Of a DNA stretch of 64,000 nucleotides, positions 4,639 to 49,981 are shown in pieces. Source of the stretch: Prolixibacteraceae bacterium (GTDB lineage Bacteria > Bacteroidota > Bacteroidia > Bacteroidales > Prolixibacteraceae); assembly GCA_018648265.1 (NCBI GenBank), contig JABGRN010000014.1:6436-70435 (forward strand), given 5' to 3'. Every line of letters starts with the position of its first letter. Within the stretch, counting starts at the first letter, position 1. The notes under the pieces were generated by a model. It saw only the letters and a program-made list of their open reading frames with translations. It was not told the DNA's origin and made no database searches. The translations under genes were made by a program, and so were the position numbers.

Positions 4639-5670
4639 TTAATATTTCCATCTGTTTGCCAAAGCTACCAACGATAACATAACAGGTACTTCAACCAAAA
4701 CTCCCACAACAGTAACTAAAGCAGCCGTAGATTGTAATCCGAAAAGTGCAATTGCAACGGCAACGGCTAATTCAAAAAAATTACTGGCACCAATCATTGC
4801 GGCAGGCGAATTGATGTTATGTGGTAGTTTTAATTTGCGGCCTCCAAACCAGGCAATAAAAAAGATGAAGTAGGTTTGAATAATCAATGGCACGGCGATT
4901 AACAGGATAATAAGTGGTTTTTCGCTTATATTATTGCCCTGAAATGCAAATAGTAATACCAGTGTAATTAAAAGAGCAAAAATTGAAACTGGTTTAAATT
5001 TTGGAAGAAATTCATTCTTAAACCACTCCTCTCCATTCTTGCGAACAAGCATTTTATGGGTAAAGTAACCAGCTGCCAAAGGAATAACTACAAATAGTAA
5101 AACACTTGCAATCAGTGTGATATACGGAATTTCTATATTTGTTATGCCCAAAAGTAATCCAACAATTGGTACAAAAGCAACCAAAATGATAAGATCGTTT
5201 ACTGAAACCTGCACTAACGTGTAATTGGGATCGCCATCGGTTAAATAGCTCCACACAAAAACCATTGCGGTACAGGGAGCTGCTCCTAACAAAATAGCGC
5301 CGGCAATATATTCACCTGCAAGTTCAGGAGATATGATTGCTGAATAAATTTTTGAAAAGAATATCCAGGCAAAAAAGGCCATTGTAAAAGGCTTAATTAG
5401 CCAGTTAATCACCAAAGTAAGTACAAGTCCTTTTGGACGTTTTCCAATATTTTTGATACTTGAAAAGTCAACTTGCAGCATCATTGGATAAATCATCAGC
5501 CAAACCAAAACAGCTACCGGGATATTTACTCCAAAAAACTCTAACCTGCTCAAAAATTGAACACTATCACCAGCAAAATTTCCGATAAGGATTCCGGTTG
5601 CAATACAAAGTGCAACCCATAAACTCAGGTATTTCTCAAAGAAACCTATTTGTCTCCTTTGCTGTTTCAT
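4639..5670 (-). CDS. acr3: Arsenite efflux transporter, ACR3 family
   Basis: A 343-aa polytopic membrane protein with the ACR3 hallmark [14 protein letters not shown]. Its start overlaps the arsM stop by 1 nt (TAATG). Confidence 0.9.
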
Positions 5671-6476
5671 TAAATTGATTTGTTTGCTGTAACAGTAATA
5701 CTGTATATCCCAATTTTCGATTTTTTGAAATTATTAAGTTCCTTTTCCGATAGGTAGTTTGTCTTAATATGATCGGGAATTACAATCTTTTTTTCGTTGT
5801 GAATTTTAATTTCAGAAAATCCCTGGTTTTGAATAATTCCCAAATAATCTTCTTTTTGAAGTGCGCCCGAAACACATCCGGCATACATTTCGGCGTCTTC
5901 TTGTAATCCTTTGGGCAGAGTTCCAGAAAGTACAACATCGGAAATGCAGAAATGGCCTGAATGTTTCAATACACGGTAGATCTCACTGAATGCTTTTTCT
6001 TTATCGGGAACTAAGTTCAGCACACAGTTGCTGATAACCACATCAAACAAATTGTCTGGCAGTGGAATATTTTCAATATCACCTTGAACAAATTCTATAT
6101 TTTTAAAATTGGTTTTATTTAGATTTTCGTTGGCTTTTTCCATCATCTCAACTGTAAAATCCAGCCCTGTAACTTTTCCGTTTTTCCCGACAATCGAACG
6201 TGCAATGAAACAGTCGTTTCCTGCGCCACTTCCCAAATCCAATACATTGTCGGCAAGTTCTATTCCTGCAAATTTTGTTGGGATCCCACATCCTAATTGA
6301 AGGTCGGCATCGGGATTGTAGCCTTTGATTTTAGAGTAATCGTCGTTAAAAACTGTGTAATCGGTACTACTACAGCCTTTTTTTCCACAACAAGAAGATT
6401 GTTCAAGAATTATACTTTGAGAAGCAATTTCCCCGTATTTTTTTCTGACAACAAATTTTAAATCTTCAGCTTTCAT
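5670..6476 (-). CDS. arsM: Arsenite S-adenosylmethionine methyltransferase
   Basis: SAM motif [12 protein letters not shown] and N-terminal Cys cluster SSCCGKKGC. The start at ATG 6476 ([18 protein letters not shown]) forms an ATGA overlap with the arsC stop. The track start at 6512 is less likely. Confidence 0.85.
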
Positions 6477-6898
6477 AATTGCGCTTTTATTTTTTTCAAA
6501 TACAATTTCCAAAAAGCATCTTTTATTTCATCGCGCACCCGAATGTATTCACTCCAGATAAACTTGTCAGTTCCAACTGCGTGAGAAGGATCATCGAATC
6601 CGATGTGCAAACGATTTTTAACTTTACCAATAAAAGCCGGACATTTTTCGTTCGCTCCACCGCAAACTGTAATTACATAATCCCACTCTTCTTTCAAATA
6701 TTTTTCAACCGAATCGGAAGTATGATTACTAATATCAATTCCAATTTCTTTCATGGCTTTTGCCGCTCCTCTATTCAATTTTCCAGATGCTTCAGTACCG
6801 GCAGAAAAAACTTCAAGATTTTTATCAAAAGATTTTAAAAAACCGTGTGCCATTTGGCTGCGGCACGAATTTCCGGTGCAAAGGATTAGTAGTTTCAT
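6473..6898 (-). CDS. arsC: Arsenate reductase, LMW-PTP (thioredoxin-coupled) type
   Basis: The N-terminal P-loop LILCTGNSCRSQMA (CX5R) and the 141-aa length are typical of this type. Confidence 0.9.
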   Translation of the reverse strand: MKLLILCTGNSCRSQMAHGFLKSFDKNLEVFSAGTEASGKLNRGAAKAMKEIGIDISNHTSDSVEKYLKEEWDYVITVCGGANEKCPAFIGKVKNRLHIGFDDPSHAVGTDKFIWSEYIRVRDEIKDAFWKLYLKKIKAQL

Positions 6899-6931
6899 TC
6901 TAACTAATAGTACAATTAAATTTCAAAAATT

Positions 6932-7303
6932 CTAAACCATAAAAATCGCCTCTTCATACATTTTTTCTACGATTTCCGGTGTTGGTGGTGTTTTCCCTTT
7001 TTCGTATCCCAAATCGGTTAATCTGAAGTGCAGGAATTTTTTTAAGCCATTTTTTTCGAAGGTCTTTTTGCCACAATCCAACTTACAACCATCAATTACC
7101 AGCATATTTGTATCACGCACAGAATCTATCATTTCTTCGATTCCTGCACTCACAAAAGCAAGGCACTTCATCGATCGTGCCTGATTAGCATGAAGTTTTC
7201 GGGCAAGCAAATCGCTGGCAAGTCCTAAATCGGCTGCGCCTGAACAGGCAAAAACAGTACATTTTTCAGGATCGGAACAACTACAGCGAATATTTTTTTC
7301 CAT
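6932..7303 (-). CDS. DGC-domain putative zinc-binding protein
   Basis: VIDGCKLDCG motif plus N-terminal CSCS...C...C cysteines. The assignment to the DGC family is from memory. Confidence 0.6.
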   Translation of the reverse strand: MEKNIRCSCSDPEKCTVFACSGAADLGLASDLLARKLHANQARSMKCLAFVSAGIEEMIDSVRDTNMLVIDGCKLDCGKKTFEKNGLKKFLHFRLTDLGYEKGKTPPTPEIVEKMYEEAIFMV

Positions 7304-7320
7304 CGCGTTAAAATTTTAGG

Positions 7321-8334
7321 TTATATATTGAAAAAGTTAAATAAGAACCCAACCATGGTAATTCCGACAGCAACAACACTAACGAAAATGACGATAAGTT
7401 GCCATTTCAGAACTTTTTTCAGAATGATAATTTCGGGTAATGACAAGCCAATAACCGACATCATAAATGCAAGTGCGGTACCAAGTGTAACTCCCTTTTC
7501 CATTAAAACGCCAACTATGGGGATAATTCCTGCGGCATTTGAATATAACGGAATCCCGGCAATAATAGCCAAAGGAACGGCGTACCAATTTTCATCGCCA
7601 AGCAAATTGGCAAGATAATCGTCGGGAACATAACCGTGCGCCCCGGCTCCAACTGCAATTCCTATTAATATGTAAATCCAGATTTTCCCAACGATTTCTT
7701 TAACAGAATCTAATCCGGCTTCAATCCGATCGTTGAGAGTTATCTTTTCATCAACCAGTCCTGGCTGATTTGATTTAACCTGATAAACCCATTCTTCAAC
7801 GTAACGTTGTAACTTCATTTTTTCTAAAATAAAGCCTGAAATAATTGCAATTGTTAAACCGGTTAACGCGTAAATTACGGCTACTTTCCAACCAAATAAA
7901 CTGGCAAGTAAAATTAAAGCAACTTCGTTAATTAATGGGGCTGCTATTAAAAACGAAAATGTAACCCCAATAGGAATGCCGGCTTCAACAAAACCAAGAA
8001 AAAGCGGAATGGCCGAGCAGGAGCAAAATGGAGTTACAATTCCAAGTCCCGATGCCATTACATTTCCCGCAAAAAGCGATTTACCCTCCAAAGCTTTTCG
8101 GGTTCTTTCGGGCGAAAACCAACTGCGAATAATCCCTACAATAAATACAATTAGAACCAGAAGAAGCATAACTTTTGGCACTTCGTAAATAAAAAACCAA
8201 ATAGATTCGGTTAAATGTTTGCCTTCTTCTAAATTTAAAATATTATAAATCAGAAAATCAGCAATATTTGCCAGGTTCATGTAAAAGGCAATCCAGCCAA
8301 CTAAAAGAGCAATTAACAATATAATTTTTTTCAT
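7321..8334 (-). CDS. Permease, ArsP-like (PF03773-type) putative organoarsenical efflux permease
   Basis: A 337-aa polytopic protein with the vicinal-Cys motif TPFCSCSAIP characteristic of ArsP-type permeases. Confidence 0.7.
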   Translation of the reverse strand: MKKIILLIALLVGWIAFYMNLANIADFLIYNILNLEEGKHLTESIWFFIYEVPKVMLLLVLIVFIVGIIRSWFSPERTRKALEGKSLFAGNVMASGLGIVTPFCSCSAIPLFLGFVEAGIPIGVTFSFLIAAPLINEVALILLASLFGWKVAVIYALTGLTIAIISGFILEKMKLQRYVEEWVYQVKSNQPGLVDEKITLNDRIEAGLDSVKEIVGKIWIYILIGIAVGAGAHGYVPDDYLANLLGDENWYAVPLAIIAGIPLYSNAAGIIPIVGVLMEKGVTLGTALAFMMSVIGLSLPEIIILKKVLKWQLIVIFVSVVAVGITMVGFLFNFFNI

Positions 8335-8421
8335 TCTATAATTTCATGTCATTTCGAACGAAGAAATAGATCTGTCTATTTAAAAATGATTTCTATTTCA
8401 ATCATCAGCTGAAATGACAGC

Positions 8422-9141
8422 TTAAATATTTAATAAACCACTAAAATAAATTACAACTACATAATAAATCCCAACACCGATAAACAGTACTGCAATTACA
8501 CGCCGCATCCAAAATTCAACCTTTTTTAAAACGTTATAAAATTTGCTTATTCCTGAAATGGTAAATGCAAGTAACCAGGCAATTATAATTACCGGAATTC
8601 CGGTTGCAAATGCATAAACAACCGGTAGTATTAATCCTTTTGCACTGCCAATCGACATCGGAATTAACATCCCGAAATAAAGCACCCCGCTATACGGGCA
8701 AAACGCCAGTGCAAACACAACTCCAAGTAGCAAAACATTCCAGAAATTCCACTTTCCCTTTTCTTCTAATTTTTTAGAGAAAAGGTTTAATCCCGGAAAA
8801 TTTATTTTAACTATTCCCAGCATAAAAATACCAACAACAATAAGAAGTGGACCTAATATTTTTTCGCCATGCAGCTGAAAAAATGAGGATAATTTGAATT
8901 GGTCGGCACCAATAAAAAACAGAATTGCAAGTATGGAGTACGACAAAGCCCTGCCAAGGGTGTAAATTAATCCATTATAAAATACCCGTTTTTTAACTTC
9001 GAGGTCTTTTCCTATGTATCCAATTGCGGTGATGTTCGTTGCCATTGGGCAAGGACTAATTGCCGTTAAAAGTCCTAAAAAGAAAGCCGATAAAATTGGA
9101 ATATTCGTGTTTTCGTATAGCCCGGTTAAAAATTGTTCCAT
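8422..9141 (-). CDS. CcdA/DsbD-like transmembrane thiol-disulfide electron transporter (ArsG-family naming in recent annotation, from memory)
   Basis: A 239-aa protein with about 6 TM helices and the SPCPMATN motif in the first helix. Confidence 0.6.
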   Translation of the reverse strand: MEQFLTGLYENTNIPILSAFFLGLLTAISPCPMATNITAIGYIGKDLEVKKRVFYNGLIYTLGRALSYSILAILFFIGADQFKLSSFFQLHGEKILGPLLIVVGIFMLGIVKINFPGLNLFSKKLEEKGKWNFWNVLLLGVVFALAFCPYSGVLYFGMLIPMSIGSAKGLILPVVYAFATGIPVIIIAWLLAFTISGISKFYNVLKKVEFWMRRVIAVLFIGVGIYYVVVIYFSGLLNI

Positions 9142-9150
9142 CTTACAATT

Positions 9151-9561
9151 TTATTCGCCCAATGCATCACGCAATGCCTGCCTGAGTTTTTCGGGTTGTC
9201 CAAGACCATACATAAAACCTTTGCTTGTTAAATCAATTTTTTCTTCGCCTTTTACTACTATTAGTGCAGATCCGGTTACCCCTAATTCTTCTGTTAGCTT
9301 TTTATTGGCGGCATTTTCGGCGTTGTACGATTTAAAAACAAGTTCCCCATTTTCCAATTCTTCAGAAAAGGGTTTCTCTTTTAATACTTTTTTGGTTTCC
9401 TTTTCAATGGCCATGCAAGTCGGGCATCGGCGCGTATTGTGGAAATAATAAACTTTTGTTTTTTCACCTTCAACTTTCGATATTGCAAATGTTTCTACAT
9501 TTCCGGCAAAAACAAATCCCAGCACAAACAAGGTTAAGATTAATGATTTTAAAGTTTTCAT
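9151..9561 (-). CDS. Secreted thioredoxin-like CxxC protein (ArsF-family naming in recent annotation, from memory)
   Basis: Signal peptide MKTLKSLILTLFVLGFVFA, then YYFHNTRRCPTCMAIE (CPTC redox motif). Confidence 0.55.
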   Translation of the reverse strand: MKTLKSLILTLFVLGFVFAGNVETFAISKVEGEKTKVYYFHNTRRCPTCMAIEKETKKVLKEKPFSEELENGELVFKSYNAENAANKKLTEELGVTGSALIVVKGEEKIDLTSKGFMYGLGQPEKLRQALRDALGE

Positions 9562-9626
9562 TTTATTTTTTTTTGATTCGTATTATTGATTTAAATCTTA
9601 AATCTGGTATATAAAAGCCTGATAAT

Positions 9627-9860
9627 TTATTTAGTTAGAAACTCTATTAATTCATTCGTTTTTGGTAAACGCCCGGTTAAAACTACTTTTCCATCGATTA
9701 CCAGGCCGGGGGTGCGCATTACACCAAATTGCATGATTTTATAAATGTCTTCTATTTTTTCTATGGTTGCATCCAAACCTAATTCATTAACCGTATTTTC
9801 AGTTAATTTCTCAAGTTTTTTGCATTTTACACAACCTGTTCCTAATACTTTTATTTCCAT
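9627..9860 (-). CDS. Small thioredoxin-fold protein (TM0996/MTH895 glutaredoxin-like family)
   Basis: A 77-aa protein, MEIKVLGTGCVKCKKLE, with a CxxC motif near the N-terminus. Confidence 0.7.
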   Translation of the reverse strand: MEIKVLGTGCVKCKKLEKLTENTVNELGLDATIEKIEDIYKIMQFGVMRTPGLVIDGKVVLTGRLPKTNELIEFLTK

Positions 9861-9875
9861 TTCAAATTTTTTAAT

Positions 9876-9904
9876 TTGTTCGTAGTTCGCAAAATGGCGA
9901 ACAG
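9876..9904 (-). promoter_or_regulatory. Operator-like inverted repeat, copy 2 (tttgttcgtaGTTCGCaaaatgGCGAACag) between arsR and the downstream ars genes
   Basis: A 6-bp perfect inverted repeat. About 75 percent of positions match the element at 10224-10257. Confidence 0.45.
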
Positions 9905-9918
9905 TTATTATAAATTTT

Positions 9919-10215
9919 TTAAACTCCTAAAAATTGTTTGAATAAACTTTGTGCATCTTCCCAATTTTCCCTGTTGATACAATATTTTATTCTTGGCGAT
10001 TCAATTTCACCTTGAATTAAACCAGCATCTTTTAATTCTTTTAAATGCTGTGAAAGAGTACTTTTTGCGATTGGAAGTTCTTCGCTTAAATCGCCACTGT
10101 AACAACATGCTTGTTTCGAAAGTAATTCCAAAACATACATCCGAACCGGATGTCCCATAGCTTTTGCATAACGCGCTATTTTTTGCTGTTCGTCTTTAAT
10201 TGCTTTTTTTTCCAT
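9919..10215 (-). CDS. arsR: ArsR/SmtB-family metalloregulatory repressor
   Basis: The wHTH region reads AKAMGHPVRMYVLELLSKQACCYSGDLSEELPIAKSTLSQHLKELKDAGLI, with a vicinal CC. The track start at 10221 is TTG, so I use the ATG at 10215. Confidence 0.85.
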   Translation of the reverse strand: MEKKAIKDEQQKIARYAKAMGHPVRMYVLELLSKQACCYSGDLSEELPIAKSTLSQHLKELKDAGLIQGEIESPRIKYCINRENWEDAQSLFKQFLGV

Positions 10216-10223
10216 CCACAAAG

Positions 10224-17163: not shown

Positions 17164-17445
17164 GGTAACAATTCGTACTATACCAATTCAATTTTTGAAA
17201 TGAGCTGTTTAGTAAATGAATAATGCTGGTAAATATTTAAAGTGCTTATAAAAAAAGTGAATTATCAGGCGCATTTTAAATAGTAATTGGTATAATTGGC
17301 AGGATAAAAACTTGTAAAAATAACTTAACAGACTGTAAAAAATAGGCCAGTCGTATGTTGATTAATTATTCCAGGATCTATATTTTTGATTAGGATAAAA
17401 TTTAATAATAACTAAATTGGTTCAGAATTTTTATTTTTGATATTT

Positions 17446-20400
17446 ATGGATTCTATTTTATTAAAAGATAAACCAAGTTGTTTCTTAATCGGAAATACAA
17501 GCCTTTTAATTAAGTGTTGTGATCTGTTAATAGAAGAAAAATGGATAATATCAGGCATCATCTCGTTTGATTCTTCAGTAATTAATTATGCAATTAAAAA
17601 GAATATTCCCTTAAAAAATAAACTTGAATCAATAAATAGTTTTCTTTCAAGTGTGCAGTTCGATTATTTATTTAGCATCGTTAACGAAATAATTCTTGAT
17701 AAAACAATATTAAACCTGCCCCTCAAACTATCCGTCAATTATCACGATTCTTTATTACCAGCAGGTGCCGGTGTATTTTCGACAACTTGGGCGCTTATTC
17801 AAGAAGAGAAGGAGCATGGAATAAGCTGGCATATTATCGACGAGGGGATTGATACGGGAGATATTTTAATTCAAAAAAAGATTAGGATTGATAAAAACGA
17901 AAGTTCTATATCTTTAAATGCCAGGTGTTATCAAACTGCCATTGAAAGCTTTCCTGAACTATTACATAGATTGCAAAGTGAAACTATAAATCCCATAAAA
18001 CAGGATTTTATTAAAAGAACATATTTCTCATTCAACAAAAGGCCAACAAATTTAGGTATTCTCGATTTCTCCGATTCAGAGTTTCATTTCGAGGCTTTTT
18101 TAAATGCTTTGGATTTTGGAGAAAATATTGATAATAATTTTTGTACCCCAAAAATTTTTCTTGCTAACAATTATTATATTCCAATTGATTATAGTTTTAA
18201 AAATTCTCAAAAAAATACAAAAAACGGTAGCATTGAAAAAGCAACTTTAAAAGAAATTGATGTAAAAGTTGCTGGGAAAGTTTTGTCGATCAAGGGTATG
18301 ACAACCATTGATGGTGAAATAATAGAATTAGAAAAGTTAATTAAAGAATTCAATCTTCGGCAAGGAAAAGTATTTCCAATTCCTGATAGTCAGGATGTAA
18401 CAAAGCTGCATTTTTTATACGAAAAGATTATCGGGAAGGAAGCTTACTGGATTCAGAAATTGTCTAATTTGAACTTTGTCGATTTCCCCTTTGTAAATAA
18501 TGAAAAGTCCGCGAATGAAAAATACACAACTCTTAAATATGAATTAAGTGTTGAATTACTTAAGTATTGCAAACAAATCAACAAAGCCGGCACTGAGATA
18601 AATTTATTCAGCCTTTTGCTGTTGTATATTTCCCGGTTATTGGATAATACCGAATTTGATATTTGGTACAAAATAAATTCGGAATACAGTAACTATCCGA
18701 ATATGTTTTCTCCTTTTGTTCCATTGGGGTGCAAATTTGAACAAAAGTCATCGCTTGTTAAAAACCTGGAATTAAGTAATAAATATATAAGACAAACAAT
18801 TGATAAAAATACTTTTGCACGCGATGTTTATACCCGTATAAAAATTCTAAGGGAGACTGAAATAAAAGGTTTAGTTAAAAAAATACCTTTTTTTATCGGA
18901 CAAATCCAAAGTCTGGAAGAATTTGAGCCGGTATTAGAAATTGGGTGGGGTATTCTAATTTCAATAAAAACAAGTGCACTGTATCTGGTGTACAACAAAA
19001 GTGAAAGAAATACGACTTTGGCTGAAAAGTTCTTTCATCATTTTTCTGTTTTTACACAAAATATAATTAAAAAGGCAAATAACATTTTTTGTGAAGTTCC
19101 ATTAATTTCAGAGTTGGAAAAGGAACGAAAATTATTTTTATGGAATCAGCAAAAAGAAAACTATCCTGAAAATATTTGTATTCAGGAATTGATAGAAGAT
19201 TGGGCAGAAAAAATCCCGAAAGAAATTGCAATTGTTCAAAATGAGAAAAAGATTTCGTACGGTGAATTAAATCAGAAAGCGAATAAAATTGCTTCATATT
19301 TAATTAAAGAAGGCATCCATCGGGGAGACAAAATTGGTGTAATGATGGATCGTTCAATTAATATCATTGTGTCATATATTGGAATTTTAAAAACCGGTGC
19401 TGCTTATGTTCCCCTTGATACAAATTTGCCGGTTTCGCGATTAAATTATATGATTGAAGTTTCGGAAATTAAAACGATAATTGTTGATGGTGACAAAAAT
19501 CGATCATTCAATAATTTAAATATTGGACTATTTTCTGACATAATTAATAGGCCAACAATTGAATTTACCGCGTTTCCAAAATATTCTTCAAACGATCTGG
19601 CCTACATAAAATTTACTTCAGGGTCAACTGGTCAACCAAAAGGTGTAATGATTACCCAAAAAAATGTTGTAGCGTTTTTGTTTAGCTACAAACCCGTGGT
19701 TAATTTAAATGAAAAAAGAATTGGAACTTGTGTTGCACCTTTAAGTTTCGATACATCAGTCGAGGAGGTATATTCATGTCTTTGTTTTGGAGGAACCGTA
19801 CATATTATGATGACGGAACAGACTTTAGATCTTGAATATTTTGCCAAATACCTTGTTGATAAAAAAATAAATGTCAGTTACATTATTCCTGAATTTGTAC
19901 AGGGGATTGGTAAATATTTAAAAAATGAAGACGTAGTTTCTTTAAAAACGTTGATAACAGGTTTGCACCCAAAGAAAAATAAAATTTTCAAACCTTTTTT
20001 TGAGTTAAAATCGAAGGTATTGATTTTAAATGCTTATGGCCCAACCGAAGTAACTTACGGATCGAGTGCATATCAGGTAAATGGCAATGAAAATCCTTTA
20101 GAAAACACTCCAATCGGAAAACCATTTCCAAACTACAATACTTATGTTGCAGATTCGAATATGCAATTATTACCCGATTATATTCCAGGCGAGTTACTTA
20201 TCGGGGGAATTGGACTTTCACGAGGGTATATTAATAAGCCCGAAATAACTAAATTAAAATTTGTTGATTTTGAATATGAGAATTTTAAGACTCAGGTTTA
20301 TAAATCGGGAGACGTGGTATATTCAGTACCCTCCGGCAATATTCACTTTGTTGGCAGGAATGATGACCAGGTGAAAATTAAAGGTTACAGGATTGAAATT

Positions 20401-21771
20401 AGTGAAATTGAGGAGGCTTTAAAAAGCAATAAAAATGTGGAAACCTCAATTGTAATAAAAAGAAAAGGGAAAAAGAGTCACGAACAATTAATTGCGTATG
20501 TTAAGCTACAAAGGAAGAATAACAATGCTACAATTCAACTTCGTAATTTTTTGCAAGATAAAATTCCCGGTTACATGATTCCCTCATTTATTATATCCCT
20601 TGATTTAGTACCTTATTTCCCAAATGGTAAAATCAACTATTCCCTTTTACCAGAACCCGCTGATTACAAAAAAGCCAACAATGTTAATATTAAAAATCCA
20701 GAATCGGCCACTGAGGAAATACTAAAACAGATTTTTGAGGAATATTTGGATGTGGAAAAAATCTCTGTGGAAGATAATTATTTCGAATTAGGGGGCGATT
20801 CGCTTACTGCGGTTCACATTATGCAAAAGATAGAAGAAATATTTGGCATGAAAATTCCAATTTCAATGCTCTATAAATATTCTTCAATTAGAAAATTGTC
20901 AAACGAAATAACTGATCAATCTATCAATAGTAAGGTAAGTTCAATAATCCCGATAAAAGAACAAGGTAGTAAGGACCCGGTATTTTTTATTCATAATATG
21001 GTGGGATCAGTATTAGGTTATAAAGACATTATTAAAAATATTGATAATCAGTACCCCGTGTATGGGATTCAATCGAATTATAACGAAGATATTATTGATG
21101 AAAATGATGGGATAGAAAAATTATCCGCCATTTATATTAAAAACATTTTACATTTAGTAAAGCATAAAAGTGTTGTATTGATTGGCTTTTCCTTTGGTGG
21201 GGTTGTTGCTTTTGAGATGGCACGGCAACTGTTAAAGCTTGGTTATAAAACTCGTTTAATAGCTGTCGATACAAATATGTCGTTTTATTATAAAAAAATG
21301 TTCCCAATCAGATACTTTTCAATTTTAATATATAATTGGTTAGCATGGGTGATTCCTTATTTTATCAAATCGGTTTCAACAAGTTTTAAAACAAAAAATC
21401 ACAAACCCCTTTTAAGTAGTGTTAATCGAATTCTATTTGAGATTCAATATTTCTTAATAAAAAGAAAAGCCCAAATGCGCGAACTAATACAGAAAGAACC
21501 ATTAATTGAAAATAAAAATGTAAGTAGAAAACTGGCGCGAAATTATTATCCGGGGATATATTCTGAAAAGGTATTTTTGATTCAATGTAAAGGAGAGGTT
21601 GAAGGGGCAATATTAAATAAAACGAAAACTAATTTATTTCGTCGATATGTTAAGGGTGAGATTTTAGTTGAACAAGTGGATACTATTCATGAAGAGATGT
21701 TAAATGAACCTTTTGTTGATGAAATTACGGAGAAAATAAATTCATTTTTACTTATTGATACAAAATCATAG
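17446..21771 (+). CDS. Single-module NRPS-like enzyme: N-terminal formyltransferase-like domain, degenerate condensation-lobe region, adenylation, PCP and thioesterase domains
   Basis: The Fmt-like motifs are SVNYHDSLLPAGAG and IDEGIDTGDI. The A-domain core motifs are ISYGEL (A1), LKTGAAYVPLD (A2), LAYIKFTSGSTGQPKGV (A3), FDTSVEE (A4), NAYGPTE (A5), GELLIGGIGLSRGYINKPE (A6), YKSGDV (A7), GRNDDQVKIKGYRIEISEIE (A8), IPGYMIPS (A9) and NGKINY (A10). The PCP motif is LGGDSLTA (Ser codon 20800-20802). The TE motif is GFSFGG (Ser codon 21190-21192). The track start at 17437 is TTG; the ATG is at 17446. Confidence 0.85.
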   Translation: MDSILLKDKPSCFLIGNTSLLIKCCDLLIEEKWIISGIISFDSSVINYAIKKNIPLKNKLESINSFLSSVQFDYLFSIVNEIILDKTILNLPLKLSVNYHDSLLPAGAGVFSTTWALIQEEKEHGISWHIIDEGIDTGDILIQKKIRIDKNESSISLNARCYQTAIESFPELLHRLQSETINPIKQDFIKRTYFSFNKRPTNLGILDFSDSEFHFEAFLNALDFGENIDNNFCTPKIFLANNYYIPIDYSFKNSQKNTKNGSIEKATLKEIDVKVAGKVLSIKGMTTIDGEIIELEKLIKEFNLRQGKVFPIPDSQDVTKLHFLYEKIIGKEAYWIQKLSNLNFVDFPFVNNEKSANEKYTTLKYELSVELLKYCKQINKAGTEINLFSLLLLYISRLLDNTEFDIWYKINSEYSNYPNMFSPFVPLGCKFEQKSSLVKNLELSNKYIRQTIDKNTFARDVYTRIKILRETEIKGLVKKIPFFIGQIQSLEEFEPVLEIGWGILISIKTSALYLVYNKSERNTTLAEKFFHHFSVFTQNIIKKANNIFCEVPLISELEKERKLFLWNQQKENYPENICIQELIEDWAEKIPKEIAIVQNEKKISYGELNQKANKIASYLIKEGIHRGDKIGVMMDRSINIIVSYIGILKTGAAYVPLDTNLPVSRLNYMIEVSEIKTIIVDGDKNRSFNNLNIGLFSDIINRPTIEFTAFPKYSSNDLAYIKFTSGSTGQPKGVMITQKNVVAFLFSYKPVVNLNEKRIGTCVAPLSFDTSVEEVYSCLCFGGTVHIMMTEQTLDLEYFAKYLVDKKINVSYIIPEFVQGIGKYLKNEDVVSLKTLITGLHPKKNKIFKPFFELKSKVLILNAYGPTEVTYGSSAYQVNGNENPLENTPIGKPFPNYNTYVADSNMQLLPDYIPGELLIGGIGLSRGYINKPEITKLKFVDFEYENFKTQVYKSGDVVYSVPSGNIHFVGRNDDQVKIKGYRIEISEIEEALKSNKNVETSIVIKRKGKKSHEQLIAYVKLQRKNNNATIQLRNFLQDKIPGYMIPSFIISLDLVPYFPNGKINYSLLPEPADYKKANNVNIKNPESATEEILKQIFEEYLDVEKISVEDNYFELGGDSLTAVHIMQKIEEIFGMKIPISMLYKYSSIRKLSNEITDQSINSKVSSIIPIKEQGSKDPVFFIHNMVGSVLGYKDIIKNIDNQYPVYGIQSNYNEDIIDENDGIEKLSAIYIKNILHLVKHKSVVLIGFSFGGVVAFEMARQLLKLGYKTRLIAVDTNMSFYYKKMFPIRYFSILIYNWLAWVIPYFIKSVSTSFKTKNHKPLLSSVNRILFEIQYFLIKRKAQMRELIQKEPLIENKNVSRKLARNYYPGIYSEKVFLIQCKGEVEGAILNKTKTNLFRRYVKGEILVEQVDTIHEEMLNEPFVDEITEKINSFLLIDTKS

Positions 21772-21847
21772 TGAATGTTTACACATATGTTTTGCTCATA
21801 AAAACAAAAGGAGTCAGATTTACATCTAACTCCCTTACTCTCAATTG

Positions 21848-21921
21848 TCGGGATGACAAGATTTGAACTTGCGACCCCTCGCCCCCCAGACGAGTACGCT
21901 ACCAGGCTGCGCCACATCCCG
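21848..21921 (-). tRNA. tRNA-Pro: tRNA-Pro, anticodon GGG
   Basis: I folded the minus-strand sequence CGGGATGTGGCGCAGCCTGGTAGCGTACTCGTCTGGGGGGCGAGGGGTCGCAAGTTCAAATCTTGTCATCCCGA by hand. It gives a 7-bp acceptor stem, a D arm, the anticodon stem CTCGT/GCGAG with loop CTGGGGG, and a T arm with TTCAAAT. CCA is not encoded. Confidence 0.9.
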
Positions 21922-30143: not shown

Positions 30144-30377
30144 ATGACAACATTCACAAGTACATTACCCGATGAATTGCTTTTGAAATTGAATGAGATG
30201 GCAAAAAAGATGGCTATTCCCAAAAATAAGATTATTGAAAAAGCACTTCATATTTATCTTGACCAATTGGTTCGGGCAGAATACATTAGGTCGTACAAAC
30301 AAGCCAGAGAAGATGAGAATATTTTGGAAATAGCCGAAGAGGGAATGGCGGATTACCTGAAACAATTGGAAGAATGA
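30144..30377 (+). CDS. Type II antitoxin, ribbon-helix-helix (CopG/ParD-like)
   Basis: A 77-aa protein whose N-terminus, TSTLPDELLLKLNEMAKKMAIPKNKIIEKALHIYL, fits an RHH fold. It has an ATGA overlap with the toxin gene. Confidence 0.7.
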   Translation: MTTFTSTLPDELLLKLNEMAKKMAIPKNKIIEKALHIYLDQLVRAEYIRSYKQAREDENILEIAEEGMADYLKQLEE

Positions 30378-30706
30378 AACAATGTGAAATTTGGTATGCC
30401 GATTTGAATCCCGTTCGTGGAAGCGAACAGCAAGGATTCCGGCCTGTAGTTATTATTAGTGGAAATATGTTGAACCAGTATCTCAAAACAGTAATTGCCT
30501 GCCCGTTAACAACCAAAATTAAAGGTTACAAAGGAAATATAATTTTAAAGCCAACAGTTAAAAATGGCTTATTAAAGGATTCAGAGATATTGATTTTTCA
30601 TATTCGATCAATTTCAAAAGAACGACTTATCCGAAAAATTGGGAATATAAGCAAAGTACAACTTGACGAATTAAAACAAGGATTGGATGATATTTTGAGG
30701 TATTAA
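30374..30706 (+). CDS. Type II toxin, MazF/PemK-family endoribonuclease
   Basis: A 110-aa protein, EIWYADLNPVRGSEQQGFRPVVIISGN, which is the typical MazF N-terminal signature. Confidence 0.85.
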   Translation: MKQCEIWYADLNPVRGSEQQGFRPVVIISGNMLNQYLKTVIACPLTTKIKGYKGNIILKPTVKNGLLKDSEILIFHIRSISKERLIRKIGNISKVQLDELKQGLDDILRY

Positions 30707-47941: not shown

Positions 47942-49981
47942 TTATTTATTGTGTAATATTTTACCATTAAATATTTCTTCACCAAGAATCATTCGGTAAA
48001 CGTAATAGCAATCTCTATTAATTTCAGAACTAAACTCAATTTTATAAGGAATTCCTTTTATAACCGGATTATTGAAAACGGTTTTTACCAGGCGACCAGT
48101 CGCATCGAACAAATCAATTCGGGCATGAGTGGTTTCCTGCGAATTAAACTCAAAGAATACTTTGTTGTTAAATGGATTTGGATAAACCTGAAGCCCAATA
48201 TTTTCCTTATCCACTAAATTGTCTTGTAAAATCTGAGCAGATTTATTTTTTACAGAATGGATAACAATTGAACCACCCCCAATTTCGGTTGCTGCTTCGG
48301 CTGTTTCATCTGCAAAAATATTATTATCGTATATTACATTATCTCCGTCATCTTTGTCCCAGATTTTAATTCTGAATTTATCTATTAATGAACCAGGAGT
48401 TAATTCCGCATCAACTGCACTCAACATAAAACCGTAATTACCTGAATCGTTAATTGTTCCAACTCCCCTGAACTGAGCTTTAGCACCTGCAATTATTAAC
48501 CAATCGTATTTAGTACTTTTAAATTTCAGATTGCCGGTATTAATATGAAACCGGGTGTTACCAACAGGTTTTATTTGTCCCTTTTTATATTTTGAAACAA
48601 ATCCGAAGTTGACCTTACCCGATAAATCTGGAGCAGCAACAAATGCACCTTCCGGCGACATTATCCATCCACCACCAGTAACAAAACCTGCTGTCGGATC
48701 ATAGACTACAACATACTGGTAAGTTTTACTGTCTGATTCATCAAATTCATCTATTACAGTTACAGTTACAGAATAAATGCCGGGGGTAATATAAATATGA
48801 TTCTTCTGGAAAGGAGTAGAAAGATTTTCAGAGTAAACTATGGGAGGATTTCCGTCTCCCCAATCAATTGTAATACTGGTCACATTGTCCTCATTGTCTG
48901 TGTATTCTATTTCCAATGTTATTTCTGTATCGATTTGAACCGGGTCAACTGGTGCAAAAACGGAAGTAATAACAGGTGGTGTATTAAATAAGGATTGCAT
49001 TAATGGGTAATTATCTTTATTGTTATTAAAAGTGTAAGGTGTATCCCCAATCCCATCATTATTTGAATCTACACCTGTATAGTCATTATAATAATTTCCA
49101 CCAGAGGGGTATCCGTTATCCCAGATATTGGTACTGTAATCATCCTGAGCTTGAACCGTATTGTCAATAAAGTCATTATGGTAAACCCTATTGTTTGTTA
49201 CTCTTGGTTCATGAAACCTAACTCCCACTGAATTATGGCTTATAATATTATTTCTAATCGTATTGGAACTCCCAACATAGCCAACCTCTACACCGCATCC
49301 ATTATCATGAATATTATTTTTCTCAATGATTGAATTAAACATTGAGTCAAAATGAATACTTGTGCCATTATTGTGATGAACGTTATTGTTTGTTATCAAG
49401 GTATTGGATCCCCATGAAACAGATAGACCACTACTATTACCAACTATTTCATTATTTCTAATAATGCAATTGTTAAATTGGTGAGCATACGATACTCCAA
49501 TATTATTTGATATGATGCAGTCTTCAATAAGGAGATACCCCCCACTGCGTGTGAGATTTAATCCCACTTGGTTCAAAGTAATTATAACATCTTTTATTGT
49601 AACATGATTAATAGAATAGTTGGGAATAGACTTTATCCCAATTTCTCCGTTGGCTACAGTTAATCCACTAATCGTTATATCGTTCGCGGTAACATATATA
49701 ACTTGCCCACTTCCGCTACCATCGATAATAGTAGTCTCTCTATCTTCTCCTTGTAAAGTCAAAGACTTATTTATCGTTACATATTCATAGTAGGTTCCTG
49801 CCTGCACATATACTTCATCACCCACGCCGGCAGCATTTACTGCCTGTTGAATTGTTGGATAGTCAACAGGAACTGTTATAGTTGTTGCATTTGTAATTTT
49901 AGGTAATATCAATGCAATTGCAATTGCCAAAAATATTACACAAAATCTAACTTTTATTATTTTAGTATTCTTGTTTTCCAT
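47942..49981 (-). CDS. Secreted right-handed parallel beta-helix (NosD/CASH-like) + PKD-like protein with T9SS C-terminal sorting domain
   Basis: After the signal peptide come TITVPVDYPTIQQAVNAAGVGDEVYVQAGTYYE, repeated N-I-x-x-N beta-helix turns, and DSNNDGIGDTPY. A PKD-like motif, DWGDGNP, follows. The C-terminus, LQVYPNPFNNKVFFEF...ATGRLVKTVF, is typical of a T9SS CTD. Confidence 0.8.
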   Translation of the reverse strand: MENKNTKIIKVRFCVIFLAIAIALILPKITNATTITVPVDYPTIQQAVNAAGVGDEVYVQAGTYYEYVTINKSLTLQGEDRETTIIDGSGSGQVIYVTANDITISGLTVANGEIGIKSIPNYSINHVTIKDVIITLNQVGLNLTRSGGYLLIEDCIISNNIGVSYAHQFNNCIIRNNEIVGNSSGLSVSWGSNTLITNNNVHHNNGTSIHFDSMFNSIIEKNNIHDNGCGVEVGYVGSSNTIRNNIISHNSVGVRFHEPRVTNNRVYHNDFIDNTVQAQDDYSTNIWDNGYPSGGNYYNDYTGVDSNNDGIGDTPYTFNNNKDNYPLMQSLFNTPPVITSVFAPVDPVQIDTEITLEIEYTDNEDNVTSITIDWGDGNPPIVYSENLSTPFQKNHIYITPGIYSVTVTVIDEFDESDSKTYQYVVVYDPTAGFVTGGGWIMSPEGAFVAAPDLSGKVNFGFVSKYKKGQIKPVGNTRFHINTGNLKFKSTKYDWLIIAGAKAQFRGVGTINDSGNYGFMLSAVDAELTPGSLIDKFRIKIWDKDDGDNVIYDNNIFADETAEAATEIGGGSIVIHSVKNKSAQILQDNLVDKENIGLQVYPNPFNNKVFFEFNSQETTHARIDLFDATGRLVKTVFNNPVIKGIPYKIEFSSEINRDCYYVYRMILGEEIFNGKILHNK

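What the first reader, a model, noticed from the sequence alone, without database searches (positions are those of the whole stretch)
17446..21771. Orphan single-module NRPS-like gene with an N-terminal formyltransferase domain and a catalytically dead condensation remnant
The 1441-aa protein (from the ATG at 17446) has the following domains in order:
- A methionyl-tRNA-formyltransferase-like domain. The N/H/D-containing motifs SVNYHDSLLP and IDEGIDTGD are present, but PAGAG replaces the usual P-x-Y-R-G.
- A ~230-aa region resembling only the C-terminal lobe of a condensation domain (EAYWIQKLSNL...). I find no HHxxxDG motif anywhere in the protein.
- A complete A domain, with motifs A1-A10 all recognisable.
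- A PCP domain (LGGDSL).
- A TE domain (GFSFGG), followed by an unusual hydrophobic stretch (YFSILIYNWLAWVIPYFIKSV).

No other NRPS or PKS genes, tailoring genes or transporters are adjacent. F-A-PCP initiation modules are known from linear gramicidin LgrA, which is established knowledge. A stand-alone F-(C*)-A-T-TE enzyme in a Bacteroidota chromosome suggests a one-enzyme route to an N-formyl or otherwise N-modified amino acid product.
Basis: partly seen in the sequence, partly recalled or inferred. Interest (0 to 1): 0.7.

Follow-up and report, generated by a model that had tools for sequence, protein, structure and literature searches.

The report
Stand-alone formylating NRPS module with thioesterase
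This is an intact single-module peptide-synthetase-like enzyme that most likely loads one amino acid, adds a formyl group and releases the product by itself; it belongs to a widespread type of formylating module that has been noticed before, so it is a solid but fairly ordinary find whose product is unknown.

Summary
The gene at 17446-21771(+) encodes a 1441-aa protein with five parts in order:
- a two-subdomain Fmt/ArnA-like formyltransferase (catalytic N98/H100/D136 intact);
- only the C-terminal lobe of a condensation domain (no HHxxxDG);
- a complete amino-acid adenylation domain (D769 and K1062 are the Asp235 and Lys517 equivalents);
- a PCP (Ser1119);
- a type I thioesterase (S1249/D1275/H1415).

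No other NRPS, PKS, PPTase or tailoring gene lies in the 64 kb window.

- "AG" in place of "RG" is universal in this family (NYHDxxLPxYAG).
- The F + C-lobe + A-T block recurs colinearly in about 90 of the 120 best database hits. One of them clusters at 90% identity with ApdA, the anabaenopeptilide synthetase.
- A DNA scan found 473 loci of the F/C-lobe block among GTDB species genomes, across many phyla.

This block differs from LgrA, whose 193-aa F domain joins the A domain directly.

Monomodular TE-terminated NRPSs predicted to make N-formyl amino acids were reported in Legionella in 2016, by prediction only.

Most likely function: a one-enzyme route to an N-formyl amino acid. The substrate is unknown (code DTEYIGAYGK, possibly a cationic side chain).

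Verdict: new member of a known kind, modest interest.

The parts
17446..21771 (+). Whole gene: 1441-aa F-C*-A-T-TE single-module NRPS (stop codon included)
   Evidence: ORF and translation. Identical protein P0001 from a Prolixibacteraceae MAG. Carried on 17 metagenome contigs; the six places listed all show the same context.
17467..18345 (+). Formyltransferase domain, aa ~8-300. It has two subdomains, Formyl_trans_N-like and Formyl_trans_C-like. Catalytic N98, H100 and D136 are present. Motif NYHDSLLPAGAG.
   Evidence: Pfam Formyl_trans_N at 81-171. Family profile positions 23-307 match ArnA residues 17-304 and Fmt (E 1e-31). AlphaFold model with pLDDT 89; Foldseek top hits are Fmt and ArnA with target-normalised TM ~0.8 over ~310 columns. 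N98, H100 and D136 are invariant in alignment A1.
18388..19140 (+). C* domain, aa ~315-565: the C-terminal lobe of a condensation domain plus the C-A linker. No N-lobe and no HHxxxDG.
   Evidence: No HH motif. Homologs match Pfam Condensation at profile positions 191-456 only. Profiles hit solved C domains at residues ~200-475. A model of the query region finds only C/Cy/E domains. The query region alone gives no Pfam hit.
19141..20670 (+). Adenylation domain, aa 566-1075. The core motifs checked (A3-A8, A10) are present. D769 is the Asp235 equivalent and K1062 the Lys517 equivalent. Specificity code DTEYIGAYGK.
   Evidence: Pfam AMP-binding and AMP-binding_C. TIGR01733 at 347 bits, above its cutoff. 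1AMU and LgrA are among the PDB hits. Code read from an alignment with a GrsA fragment that returns DAWTIAAIC. Motif positions.
20719..20904 (+). Peptidyl carrier protein domain, aa 1092-1153. Phosphopantetheine attachment Ser1119 in LGGDSL.
   Evidence: Pfam PP-binding, E 3e-14. Motif position.
20977..21768 (+). Type I thioesterase domain, aa 1178-1441. Triad S1249 (GFSFGG), D1275 (IAVDT), H1415 (VDTIHEEML).
   Evidence: Pfam Thioesterase at 1178-1271. Alignment with 18 homologous TE domains shows the Ser, Asp and His columns conserved. PDB sequence hits are PKS and NRPS TE domains, N-terminal half only.
21313..21375 (+). Aromatic and hydrophobic segment YFSILIYNWLAWVIPYFIKSV (aa 1290-1310), inside the TE lid between the catalytic Asp and His.
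   Evidence: Position. Partly conserved only in the closest relatives P0002-P0004. It is not among the most hydrophobic 19-residue windows of the protein. Mean Kyte-Doolittle ~1.2, from my hand sum over the 21 residues.

Best explanation
The gene encodes a self-contained, single-module, formylating NRPS-like enzyme.

Proposed cycle:
1. A phosphopantetheinyl transferase encoded elsewhere converts Ser1119 of the carrier domain to the holo form (inferred).
2. The A domain adenylates one alpha-amino acid and loads it as a thioester. This is inferred from intact core motifs and from D769 and K1062. The substrate is unknown. The code DTEYIGAYGK, with Glu at position 239, hints at a cationic side chain.
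3. The carrier arm presents the aminoacyl thioester to the N-terminal Fmt/ArnA-like domain. That domain transfers a formyl group from N10-formyl-tetrahydrofolate to an amino group through the N98/H100/D136 triad. This step rests on homology with LgrA and with ApdA-type modules.
4. The formyl-aminoacyl thioester moves to Ser1249 of the TE and is released, most simply by hydrolysis, as a free N-formyl amino acid (inferred).

The C-lobe between F and A is not catalytic. It is a conserved scaffold that keeps the usual C-A platform contact with the A domain. The formyltransferase sits where the N-lobe of a condensation domain would be.

The enzyme needs no dedicated partner genes, which fits its different neighbourhood in every genome examined.
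For: - Domain order and intact catalytic residues.
- The F domain is a full two-subdomain formyltransferase by profile and by fold.
- The C-lobe is shown by profile and by fold.
- The F(1-300) + C*(300-565) + A-T block is colinear in about 90 of the 120 best hits. A DNA scan found 473 loci encoding relatives of the F/C* region among GTDB species genomes.
- One hit, P0010, clusters at 90% identity with anabaenopeptilide synthetase ApdA of Anabaena sp. 90. ApdA is one of the three assembly lines whose product carries an N-formyl group installed by an F domain (PMC8949500). The F-linked A domain of P0010 has the code DAWQFGLID, which I recognise from memory as a Gln code.
- LgrA F-A-PCP biochemistry and structures establish formylation of the carrier-bound amino acid from N10-fTHF (PMC10510592).
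- TE-terminated monomodular NRPSs in Legionella were independently predicted to give N-formyl amino acids (PMC5126622). Legionella proteins with this domain order are 30-31% identical over 87-88% of the query.
- The six places listed, of the 17 metagenome contigs carrying the identical protein, share the same context. This argues for a maintained, functional gene.
- Six clade members share no neighbouring gene.
Against: - No biochemical data exist for this protein or for any F-C*-A-T-TE enzyme I could find.
- The substrate cannot be assigned. The code matches none that I know.
- Which nitrogen is formylated is not shown. Relatives that carry the F domain between a complete C domain and the A domain cannot be using the alpha-amine for both reactions.
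- The TE could cyclise, oligomerise or transfer the product rather than hydrolyse it.
- The query's C* region is so diverged that it gives no Pfam hit on its own.
- No PPTase is present in the window.
- Only 64 kb of the genome was visible.
Confidence: 0.65

Rival explanations
1. Side-chain formylation. The module activates a diamino or otherwise cationic amino acid, and the F domain formylates the side-chain nitrogen (or a hydroxylamine), leaving the alpha-amine free. The TE then releases an N-omega-formyl amino acid or a lactam.
For: - The code has Glu at position 239, as in Lys/Orn-type codes (the assignment of those codes is from memory).
- Relatives with the order A-T-C-F-C*-A-T-TE exist. 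All of their F-linked A domains have D.E(D/N)(I/V)GT(V/I)(V/I) codes. The amino acid in those modules must offer two nucleophiles, one for the C domain and one for the F domain.
- In the NJ tree the query's F domain sits next to such internal F domains, and it shares the IDEGIDTGD motif with them.
Against: - Bootstrap support for grouping the query clade with the internal F domains is poor: 12 of 50 and 2 of 50 replicates.
- The query code differs from the internal-module codes at positions 278, 322, 330 and 331.
- In the internal modules the C domain could just as well use the side chain while the F domain takes the alpha-amine.
- All characterised F domains act on alpha-amines (PMC8949500, PMC10510592).
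Confidence: 0.15
2. The TE is not a simple hydrolase. It either works iteratively, oligomerising or cyclising formyl-aminoacyl units, or it transfers the acyl group to another acceptor such as a lipid, sugar or amine. Its aromatic lid may sit at the membrane.
For: - The TE lid carries an aromatic and hydrophobic segment that is conserved only in the closest relatives.
- PDB sequence hits include the Pks13 TE. From memory, that TE transfers its acyl chain to trehalose.
- The Legionella study left linear versus cyclic release open (PMC5126622).
Against: - The lid segment is not transmembrane-grade (mean Kyte-Doolittle ~1.2 by hand sum; not among the top hydrophobic windows).
- The PDB hits cover only the generic N-terminal half of the TE fold, at weak E-values (1e-7 to 5e-3).
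- An alpha-N-formyl amino acid has no nucleophile for self-condensation unless the side chain supplies one.
- No acceptor-supplying gene is conserved nearby.
Confidence: 0.1
3. The protein is one piece of a split pathway. Partner NRPS or tailoring genes lie outside the window, and the product is a building block handed on in trans.
For: - Many relatives are F-C*-A-T proteins without a TE (~1180-1215 aa), which must pass their product on.
- Only 64 kb of the genome could be inspected.
- The PPTase, at least, must be encoded elsewhere.
Against: - A fused C-terminal TE marks a terminating enzyme.
- No NRPS or PKS gene is in the window.
- Relatives sit next to unrelated genes in every genome examined.
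Confidence: 0.07
4. The F domain is catalytically silent and only structural, so the enzyme merely activates and releases (or cyclises) an unmodified amino acid.
For: - The Arg of the classical SLLPxxRG motif is replaced by Ala.
- The query alone matches only part of the Pfam Formyl_trans_N profile (positions 89-179 of 181).
Against: - Ala at that position is universal in the family, which includes the ApdA cluster.
- N98, H100 and D136, and many surrounding residues, are invariant across 22 diverse members.
- The modelled fold is a complete Fmt/ArnA-like domain.
- Activating an amino acid only to hydrolyse it again would be a futile cycle.
Confidence: 0.03

Closest known systems
ApdA-type formylating initiation module (anabaenopeptilide synthetase ApdA, Anabaena sp. 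90)
   Same: - The same colinear block: two-subdomain F (~300 aa) + C-lobe (~265 aa) + A + T.
- The same NYHDxxLPxYAG motif and the same conserved Asn/His/Asp.
- P0010, which clusters at 90% identity with ApdA, aligns with the query over F (38% identity), C* (22%) and A (32%).
   Different: - ApdA continues with C-A-T and feeds a multimodular depsipeptide line. The window protein ends in a TE after one module.
- The A-domain code differs: DAWQFGLID in the ApdA cluster representative P0010 (a Gln code, from memory) versus DTEYIGAYG here.
LgrA initiation module F-A-PCP (linear gramicidin), the only structurally and biochemically characterised F module
   Same: - An N-terminal formyltransferase-fold domain placed before an A-T pair.
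- A recognisable sequence match of the catalytic subdomain (E 1e-9 for the query, 7e-30 for the family profile).
- The presumed chemistry: formylation of the carrier-bound amino acid from N10-fTHF.
   Different: - The LgrA F domain is only 193 residues (PMC10510592), and its A domain starts at about residue 204.
- Here about 370 extra residues lie in between: a Formyl_trans_C-like subdomain and a condensation C-lobe.
- LgrA has no TE.
Monomodular TE-terminated NRPSs of Legionella, clusters G and I (Tobias et al. 2016, PMC5126622)
   Same: - Monomodular, TE-terminated NRPSs predicted to release an N-formyl amino acid.
- Legionella proteins with this domain order are among the hits: P0077, P0091, P0100, P0113 and P0115 are 30-31% identical over 87-88% of the query. 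They also carry the middle region.
- I did not check whether these hits are the genes of clusters G and I themselves.
   Different: - Different phylum and different A-domain codes (DAWQFGLID, DLPE[LM]GEVS).
- The Legionella products were only predicted, so this is a precedent for the architecture and not for the chemistry.
Mollusc FmtATR (bursatellin/oxazinin pathway, PMC11869996)
   Same: A single-module Fmt-A-T enzyme with a fused releasing domain, proposed to make an N-formyl amino acid derivative without any condensation step.
   Different: - Release is by an NADPH-dependent reductase domain, giving N-formyl-tyrosinol, not by a TE.
- It is animal-encoded and sits in a gene cluster with tailoring enzymes.
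- Only its T-R part was reconstituted.
C* / ADA domains: C-lobe-only domains preceding the first A domain of ACV synthetases and Lys2-type reductases (PMC7884236)
   Same: An isolated C-terminal lobe of a condensation domain sits directly upstream of an A domain. It lacks motifs C1-C3, including HHxxxDG. It is conserved and presumably supports the A domain.
   Different: In those enzymes the C-lobe is the N-terminus of the protein. Here a complete formyltransferase is fused in front of it, at the position of the missing N-lobe.

Membership tests
Amino-acid-activating NRPS adenylation domain | Matches the curated adenylation-domain model above its cutoff | tested here: met
   TIGR01733 scores 347.2 bits against a cutoff of 317.4. 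Pfam AMP-binding E 2e-70.
Amino-acid-activating NRPS adenylation domain | Asp235 and Lys517 equivalents (GrsA numbering), which bind the alpha-amino and carboxylate groups | tested here: met
   D769 in FDTS and K1062 in PNGKINY.
Amino-acid-activating NRPS adenylation domain | Amino-acid-dependent ATP-PPi exchange | not testable with these tools
   Needs the purified protein.
Formyltransferase (Fmt/ArnA/PurN superfamily) domain | Formyl_trans_N fold with the Asn-x-His ... Asp catalytic triad | tested here: met
   Pfam hit above cutoff (60.5 bits against 26.1). N98, H100 and D136 are invariant in the family alignment. Foldseek target-normalised TM ~0.8 to Fmt and ArnA.
Formyltransferase (Fmt/ArnA/PurN superfamily) domain | Classical SLLPxxRG motif | tested here: not met
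   The query has SLLPAGAG. The whole F-C*-A family, including the ApdA cluster, has xYAG, so this is a family signature and not a defect.
Formyltransferase (Fmt/ArnA/PurN superfamily) domain | N10-formyl-THF-dependent formyl transfer | not testable with these tools
   Needs an enzyme assay.
ApdA-type formylating NRPS module (F_N-F_C-C lobe-A-T) | Colinear F (~300 aa) + C-lobe (~265 aa) + A + T, with the carrier Ser about 1100-1140 residues after the start of F | tested here: met
   BLAST of the four query segments against 120 hits shows the same order and spacing in about 90 of them. Carrier Ser positions. ApdA is in the 90% cluster of P0010.
LgrA-type F-A-PCP initiation module | A small (~190 aa) F domain fused directly to the A domain | tested here: not met
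   The query's A domain starts at ~566, against ~204 in LgrA. The LgrA F domain is 193 residues (PMC10510592).
Canonical NRPS condensation domain | N-lobe with the HHxxxDG active-site motif | tested here: not met
   No HH motif in the protein. Only profile positions ~191-456 of Condensation are matched in homologs. Solved C domains are matched from residue ~200 onward.
Canonical NRPS condensation domain | C-lobe fold | tested here: met
   The model of residues 305-580 (pLDDT 85) hits only C/Cy/E domains, with query-normalised TM 0.6-0.7.
Type I NRPS/PKS thioesterase | Alpha/beta-hydrolase fold with GxSxG Ser, Asp ~26 residues later, and C-terminal His | tested here: met
   S1249, D1275 and H1415 align with the conserved columns of 18 homologs. 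Pfam Thioesterase scores 44.1 bits against a cutoff of 26.4.
Peptidyl carrier protein | PP-binding domain with the (L/I)GG(D/H)S(L/I) serine | tested here: met
   Pfam PP-binding E 3e-14. LGGDSL at 1115-1120.
Multi-gene NRPS biosynthetic cluster | Adjacent NRPS, PKS, tailoring, transporter, MbtH or PPTase genes | tested here: not met
   All ORFs of at least 100 aa in the window were scanned. The neighbours are pntAB, trxB-like, an aminotransferase, BamD, RpoZ, CoaBC and similar genes. Relatives have no shared neighbour.

The most novel reading that the evidence does not exclude
The F domains of this Bacteroidota clade may belong with those embedded between a complete C domain and the C-lobe/A domain of dimodular relatives. 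In that case they act on the side-chain nitrogen of a cationic amino acid and not on the alpha-amine. The stand-alone enzyme would then make a free N-omega-formyl diamino acid or its lactam. That would be an undescribed small-metabolite class, made by one orphan enzyme in uncultured Prolixibacteraceae, and the first in-cis F domain that is not an N-terminal cap.
Probability: 0.12. Interest if true: 0.55.

Novelty: new member of a known kind. Interest (0 to 1): 0.3.

Why it matters
If the prediction holds, the protein is a compact, partner-free biocatalyst. It would turn one amino acid, ATP and formyl-folate into an N-formyl amino acid. It would also give a first handle on what such molecules do in uncultured sediment and marine Bacteroidota.

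The comparison has a wider point. The formylating module studied in detail (LgrA) is the less common design. The common design in sequence databases is a larger Fmt/ArnA-like domain fused to a condensation C-lobe; a DNA scan found 473 such loci among species-representative genomes. No structure or enzymology exists for that design. A small single-module member with its own TE, like this one, would be a convenient model for it.

None of this overturns current understanding. The architecture and its predicted chemistry were already anticipated in Legionella and demonstrated in part for a mollusc enzyme.

Tried and rejected
1. **Genomic island.** I looked for evidence that the gene is an island inserted at the adjacent tRNA-Pro. 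No repeat of the tRNA 3' end or any other att-like repeat flanks the gene, and no integrase is present. The gene's GC (0.309) is the lowest among 29 window genes, but only about 2.3 SD below the mean, and GC3 about 1.7 SD. Horizontal origin is possible but not shown.

2. **Promoter.** I searched for a Bacteroidota-type promoter (TTTG N17-23 TAnnTTTG). There are 7 hits in the window against 6.8 expected, and none lies upstream of the gene. Only -7-like TATTTTTG motifs sit in a 27-nt imperfect repeat before the start codon.

3. **Membrane anchor.** I tested whether the hydrophobic stretch is a membrane anchor. It lies in the TE lid, is not among the protein's most hydrophobic 19-residue windows, and averages about 1.2 on the Kyte-Doolittle scale by hand sum. 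Rejected as a transmembrane helix.

4. **F-domain phylogeny.** The NJ tree places the query clade beside internal F domains. Bootstrap support is only 24% and 4% (an earlier attempt timed out). I do not rely on it.

5. **Direct Pfam detection of the C-lobe.** The query region gives no hit at E<=1. The assignment needed family profiles and a structure model.

6. **Conserved neighbours.** I looked for shared neighbours in six relatives: none. A class-III aminotransferase sits next to P0037, and an FkbO-like gene next to P0034. Each is a single occurrence.

7. **Literature.** Searches for a characterised F-A-T-TE enzyme, or for a description of the F plus C-lobe fusion, found nothing.

8. **Substrate assignment.** The ten-residue code matches none that I can recall, and no predictor was available.

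Full report
**1. What is at the coordinates**

The ORF runs from the ATG at 17446 to the stop codon ending at 21771 on the plus strand and encodes 1441 aa. An in-frame TTG lies three codons upstream. An identical 1441-aa protein is on record from a Prolixibacteraceae MAG. The exact sequence is carried on 17 metagenome contigs, and the six places listed all show it between pntAB and a thioredoxin-reductase-like gene.

Pfam places five domains on the query:
- Formyl_trans_N at 81-171
- AMP-binding at 584-928
- AMP-binding_C at 987-1062
- PP-binding at 1092-1153
- Thioesterase at 1178-1271

The NCBIfam adenylation-domain model TIGR01733 is passed above its cutoff. The key residues are as follows:
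- F domain: N98, H100, D136
- A domain: D769 and K1062, the Asp235 and Lys517 equivalents
- Carrier domain: Ser1119
- TE domain: S1249, D1275, H1415

No HHxxxDG motif exists in the protein.

**2. The region between F and A**

The query's residues 305-580 give no Pfam hit on their own, even at E<=1. Three other lines of evidence identify the region.
- Nine of 15 homologous regions match Condensation. In full-length homologs the match covers only profile positions ~191-456 of 456.
- A 22-sequence family profile of residues 1-580 matches ArnA and Fmt over both of their subdomains with positions 23-307 (E 1e-31). With positions 327-582 it matches solved C domains from residue ~200 to ~475 (McyB E 9e-22, TycB, Txo1). 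A profile of the middle region alone gives the same result.
- An AlphaFold model of residues 1-580 is confident (pLDDT 89, pTM 0.82), and its best PDB matches are Fmt and ArnA at target-normalised TM ~0.8. A model of residues 305-580 (pLDDT 85) retrieves only C, Cy and E domains. TM is 0.6-0.7 normalised to the query and ~0.4 normalised to isolated C domains, which means it covers half of a C domain.

The protein therefore reads F_N-F_C-(C-lobe)-A-T-TE.

**3. These features are family traits**

I cut the query into F, middle, A and TE segments and compared them with the 120 best database hits. The F(~300 aa) + C-lobe(~265 aa) + A-T block has the same order and spacing in about 90 of them. It occurs in four settings:
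- alone, as F-C*-A-T;
- with a TE, as here;
- at the head of dimodular proteins;
- surprisingly, after a complete A-T-C (see section 7).

In all of these the formyltransferase motif reads NYHDxxLPxYAG.

One hit, P0010, clusters at 90% identity with anabaenopeptilide synthetase ApdA of Anabaena sp. 90. ApdA's assembly line is one of only three for which an F domain has been tied to an N-formylated product (PMC8949500).

A degenerate DNA scan of one genome per GTDB species found 473 loci encoding relatives of this F/C-lobe region. They come from cyanobacteria, Acidobacteriota, Chloroflexota, Desulfobacterota, Bacteroidota, Lentisphaerota, Proteobacteria and others.

LgrA, the structurally characterised F module, is built differently. 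Its F domain is 193 residues (PMC10510592) and its A domain begins at about residue 204. It has neither a Formyl_trans_C-like subdomain nor a C-lobe. I found no paper describing the F plus C-lobe fusion. C-lobe-only domains in front of first A domains are known from ACV synthetases and Lys2-type reductases, where they are needed for activity (PMC7884236).

**4. Substrate**

I aligned the F-linked A domains with a GrsA fragment recalled from memory. That fragment returns the textbook Phe code DAWTIAAIC, which validates the register. The query code comes out as DTEYIGAYG, plus K1062.

The same type of code, D[TV]E[YF][IL]G.[YF]G, occurs in P0002-P0004, P0019, P0037 and P0046. Other F-linked A domains carry many different codes. 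From memory, these include Thr-, Val-, Gly-, Gln-, Ala- and Phe/Tyr-like codes. The module type is thus not tied to one amino acid.

I cannot assign the query code. Glu at position 239 is typical of codes for basic amino acids (from memory), so a cationic side chain is a reasonable guess and no more than that.

**5. Context**

All ORFs of at least 100 aa in the window were scanned.
- Upstream lie two peptidases and pntAB.
- Downstream lie tRNA-Pro, a thioredoxin-reductase-like gene, an aminotransferase on the other strand, BamD, RpoZ, CoaBC and others.
- There is no NRPS, PKS, PPTase, MbtH-like or tailoring gene, and no exporter next to the gene.

Six relatives of the same clade sit in six unrelated neighbourhoods. 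Together with the fused TE, this supports a self-sufficient enzyme.

The gene has the lowest GC of 29 window genes (0.309 against 0.372 +/- 0.027) and is followed by a tRNA gene. No att-like repeat or integrase was found, so horizontal acquisition remains an open possibility only.

**6. Mechanism and rivals**

The best-supported mechanism is the classical one. The holo-carrier is loaded by the A domain. The aminoacyl thioester is formylated by the F domain from N10-formyl-THF. The TE then releases an N-formyl amino acid. The C-lobe serves as the scaffold that preserves the C-A platform, with the F domain in place of the N-lobe.

Shown here: domain identities, intact catalytic residues, family membership and the orphan context. 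Inferred: every chemical step.

The rivals are:
- side-chain rather than alpha-N formylation;
- non-hydrolytic release by the TE;
- a split pathway with partners elsewhere in the genome;
- a silent F domain.

The TE's hydrophobic stretch lies in the lid and is not transmembrane-grade (mean Kyte-Doolittle ~1.2 by hand sum).

**7. Noticed on the way**

Several relatives, such as P0016, P0017 and P0036, have the order A-T-C(complete)-F_N-F_C-C*-A-T-TE. This contradicts the textbook statement that F domains are always N-terminal (PMC8949500, PMC10510592). All of their F-linked A domains have D.E(D/N)(I/V)GT(V/I)(V/I) codes. An amino acid with two nucleophiles is implied.

The query's F domain sits next to these in an NJ tree, but bootstrap support is poor. 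I use this only to frame the most novel reading that is not excluded.

**8. Comparison with the known, and verdict**

The protein is a member of the ApdA-type formylating module family and is not of the LgrA type. TE-terminated monomodular NRPSs were already noted in Legionella and predicted to make N-formyl amino acids (PMC5126622), and Legionella proteins with this same domain order are 30-31% identical to the query. A single-module Fmt-A-T-R enzyme has been partly characterised in molluscs (PMC11869996).

It is therefore a new member of a known kind. It is real, intact and probably functional, with an unknown substrate and product. A specialist would not be surprised by it, although it would be a convenient model for the common but unstudied F plus C-lobe design. 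Interest 0.3.

Noticed in passing
window 21847-21921 (-): tRNA-Pro (anticodon GGG) lies 76 nt downstream of the NRPS stop codon, with its 3' end facing the gene. The NRPS gene has the lowest GC of 29 window genes (0.309 against a mean of 0.372). No att-like repeat or integrase was found, so an island origin is unproven.
   Followed up: partly
window 17364-17390 and 17415-17441 (+): A 27-nt imperfect direct repeat (78% identity, 51 nt apart) lies immediately upstream of the start codon. Each copy ends in TATTTTTG, which fits the Bacteroidota -7 promoter motif TAnnTTTG. No matching -33 TTTG element at the usual spacing was found.
   Followed up: partly
relatives P0016, P0017, P0036 (also P0015, P0018, P0020-P0023, P0030, P0032, P0035, P0039, P0040, P0043, P0055, P0059, P0071): These are dimodular NRPSs with the formyltransferase inside the protein: A-T-C(complete, with HHxxxDG)-F_N-F_C-C lobe-A-T-TE. 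All of their F-linked A domains have D.E(D/N)(I/V)GT(V/I)(V/I) codes. The reviews I read state that F domains occur only at the N-terminus. This arrangement implies a substrate with two nucleophiles, perhaps with side-chain formylation.
   Followed up: partly
relatives P0109, P0110, P0112, P0114, P0089: These are F-C*-A-T modules whose A domain is interrupted by a luciferase-like monooxygenase domain and/or methyltransferase domains, judging from the precomputed Pfam lists and the split A-domain BLAST hits.
   Followed up: no
window 4639-10221 (-): An arsenic-resistance-like gene string: ArsR-type HTH regulator (9919-10221), an ORF with no family hit (9151-9561), a DsbD_2 membrane protein, an ArsP-type permease, a DGC-domain protein, a low-molecular-weight phosphatase (ArsC-like), a SAM methyltransferase (ArsM-like) and an SBF/ACR3-like transporter.
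   Followed up: partly
window 35709-64000 (-): Four tandem paralogous sets of OmpR-type response regulator + ~670-710-aa histidine kinase + large TPR/PD40 beta-propeller protein (700-1290 aa). A fifth PD40 protein (50376-54365, 1329 aa) and a NosD/PKD protein with a T9SS sorting domain (47942-49981) lie between them.
   Followed up: partly
window 30374-30706 (+): A MazF/PemK-type toxin gene (Pfam E 5e-29). No antitoxin was looked for.
   Followed up: no
L084 6160-7644 and L085 5615-7956: Two relatives have suggestive same-strand upstream neighbours. P0037, which has the same A-domain code type as the query, is preceded by a class-III aminotransferase. P0034, which has a different code (DTWYKGLVC), is preceded by an FkbO/Hyg5-like chorismatase-family gene plus an unknown ORF. 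Each is a single occurrence and is not conserved.
   Followed up: no
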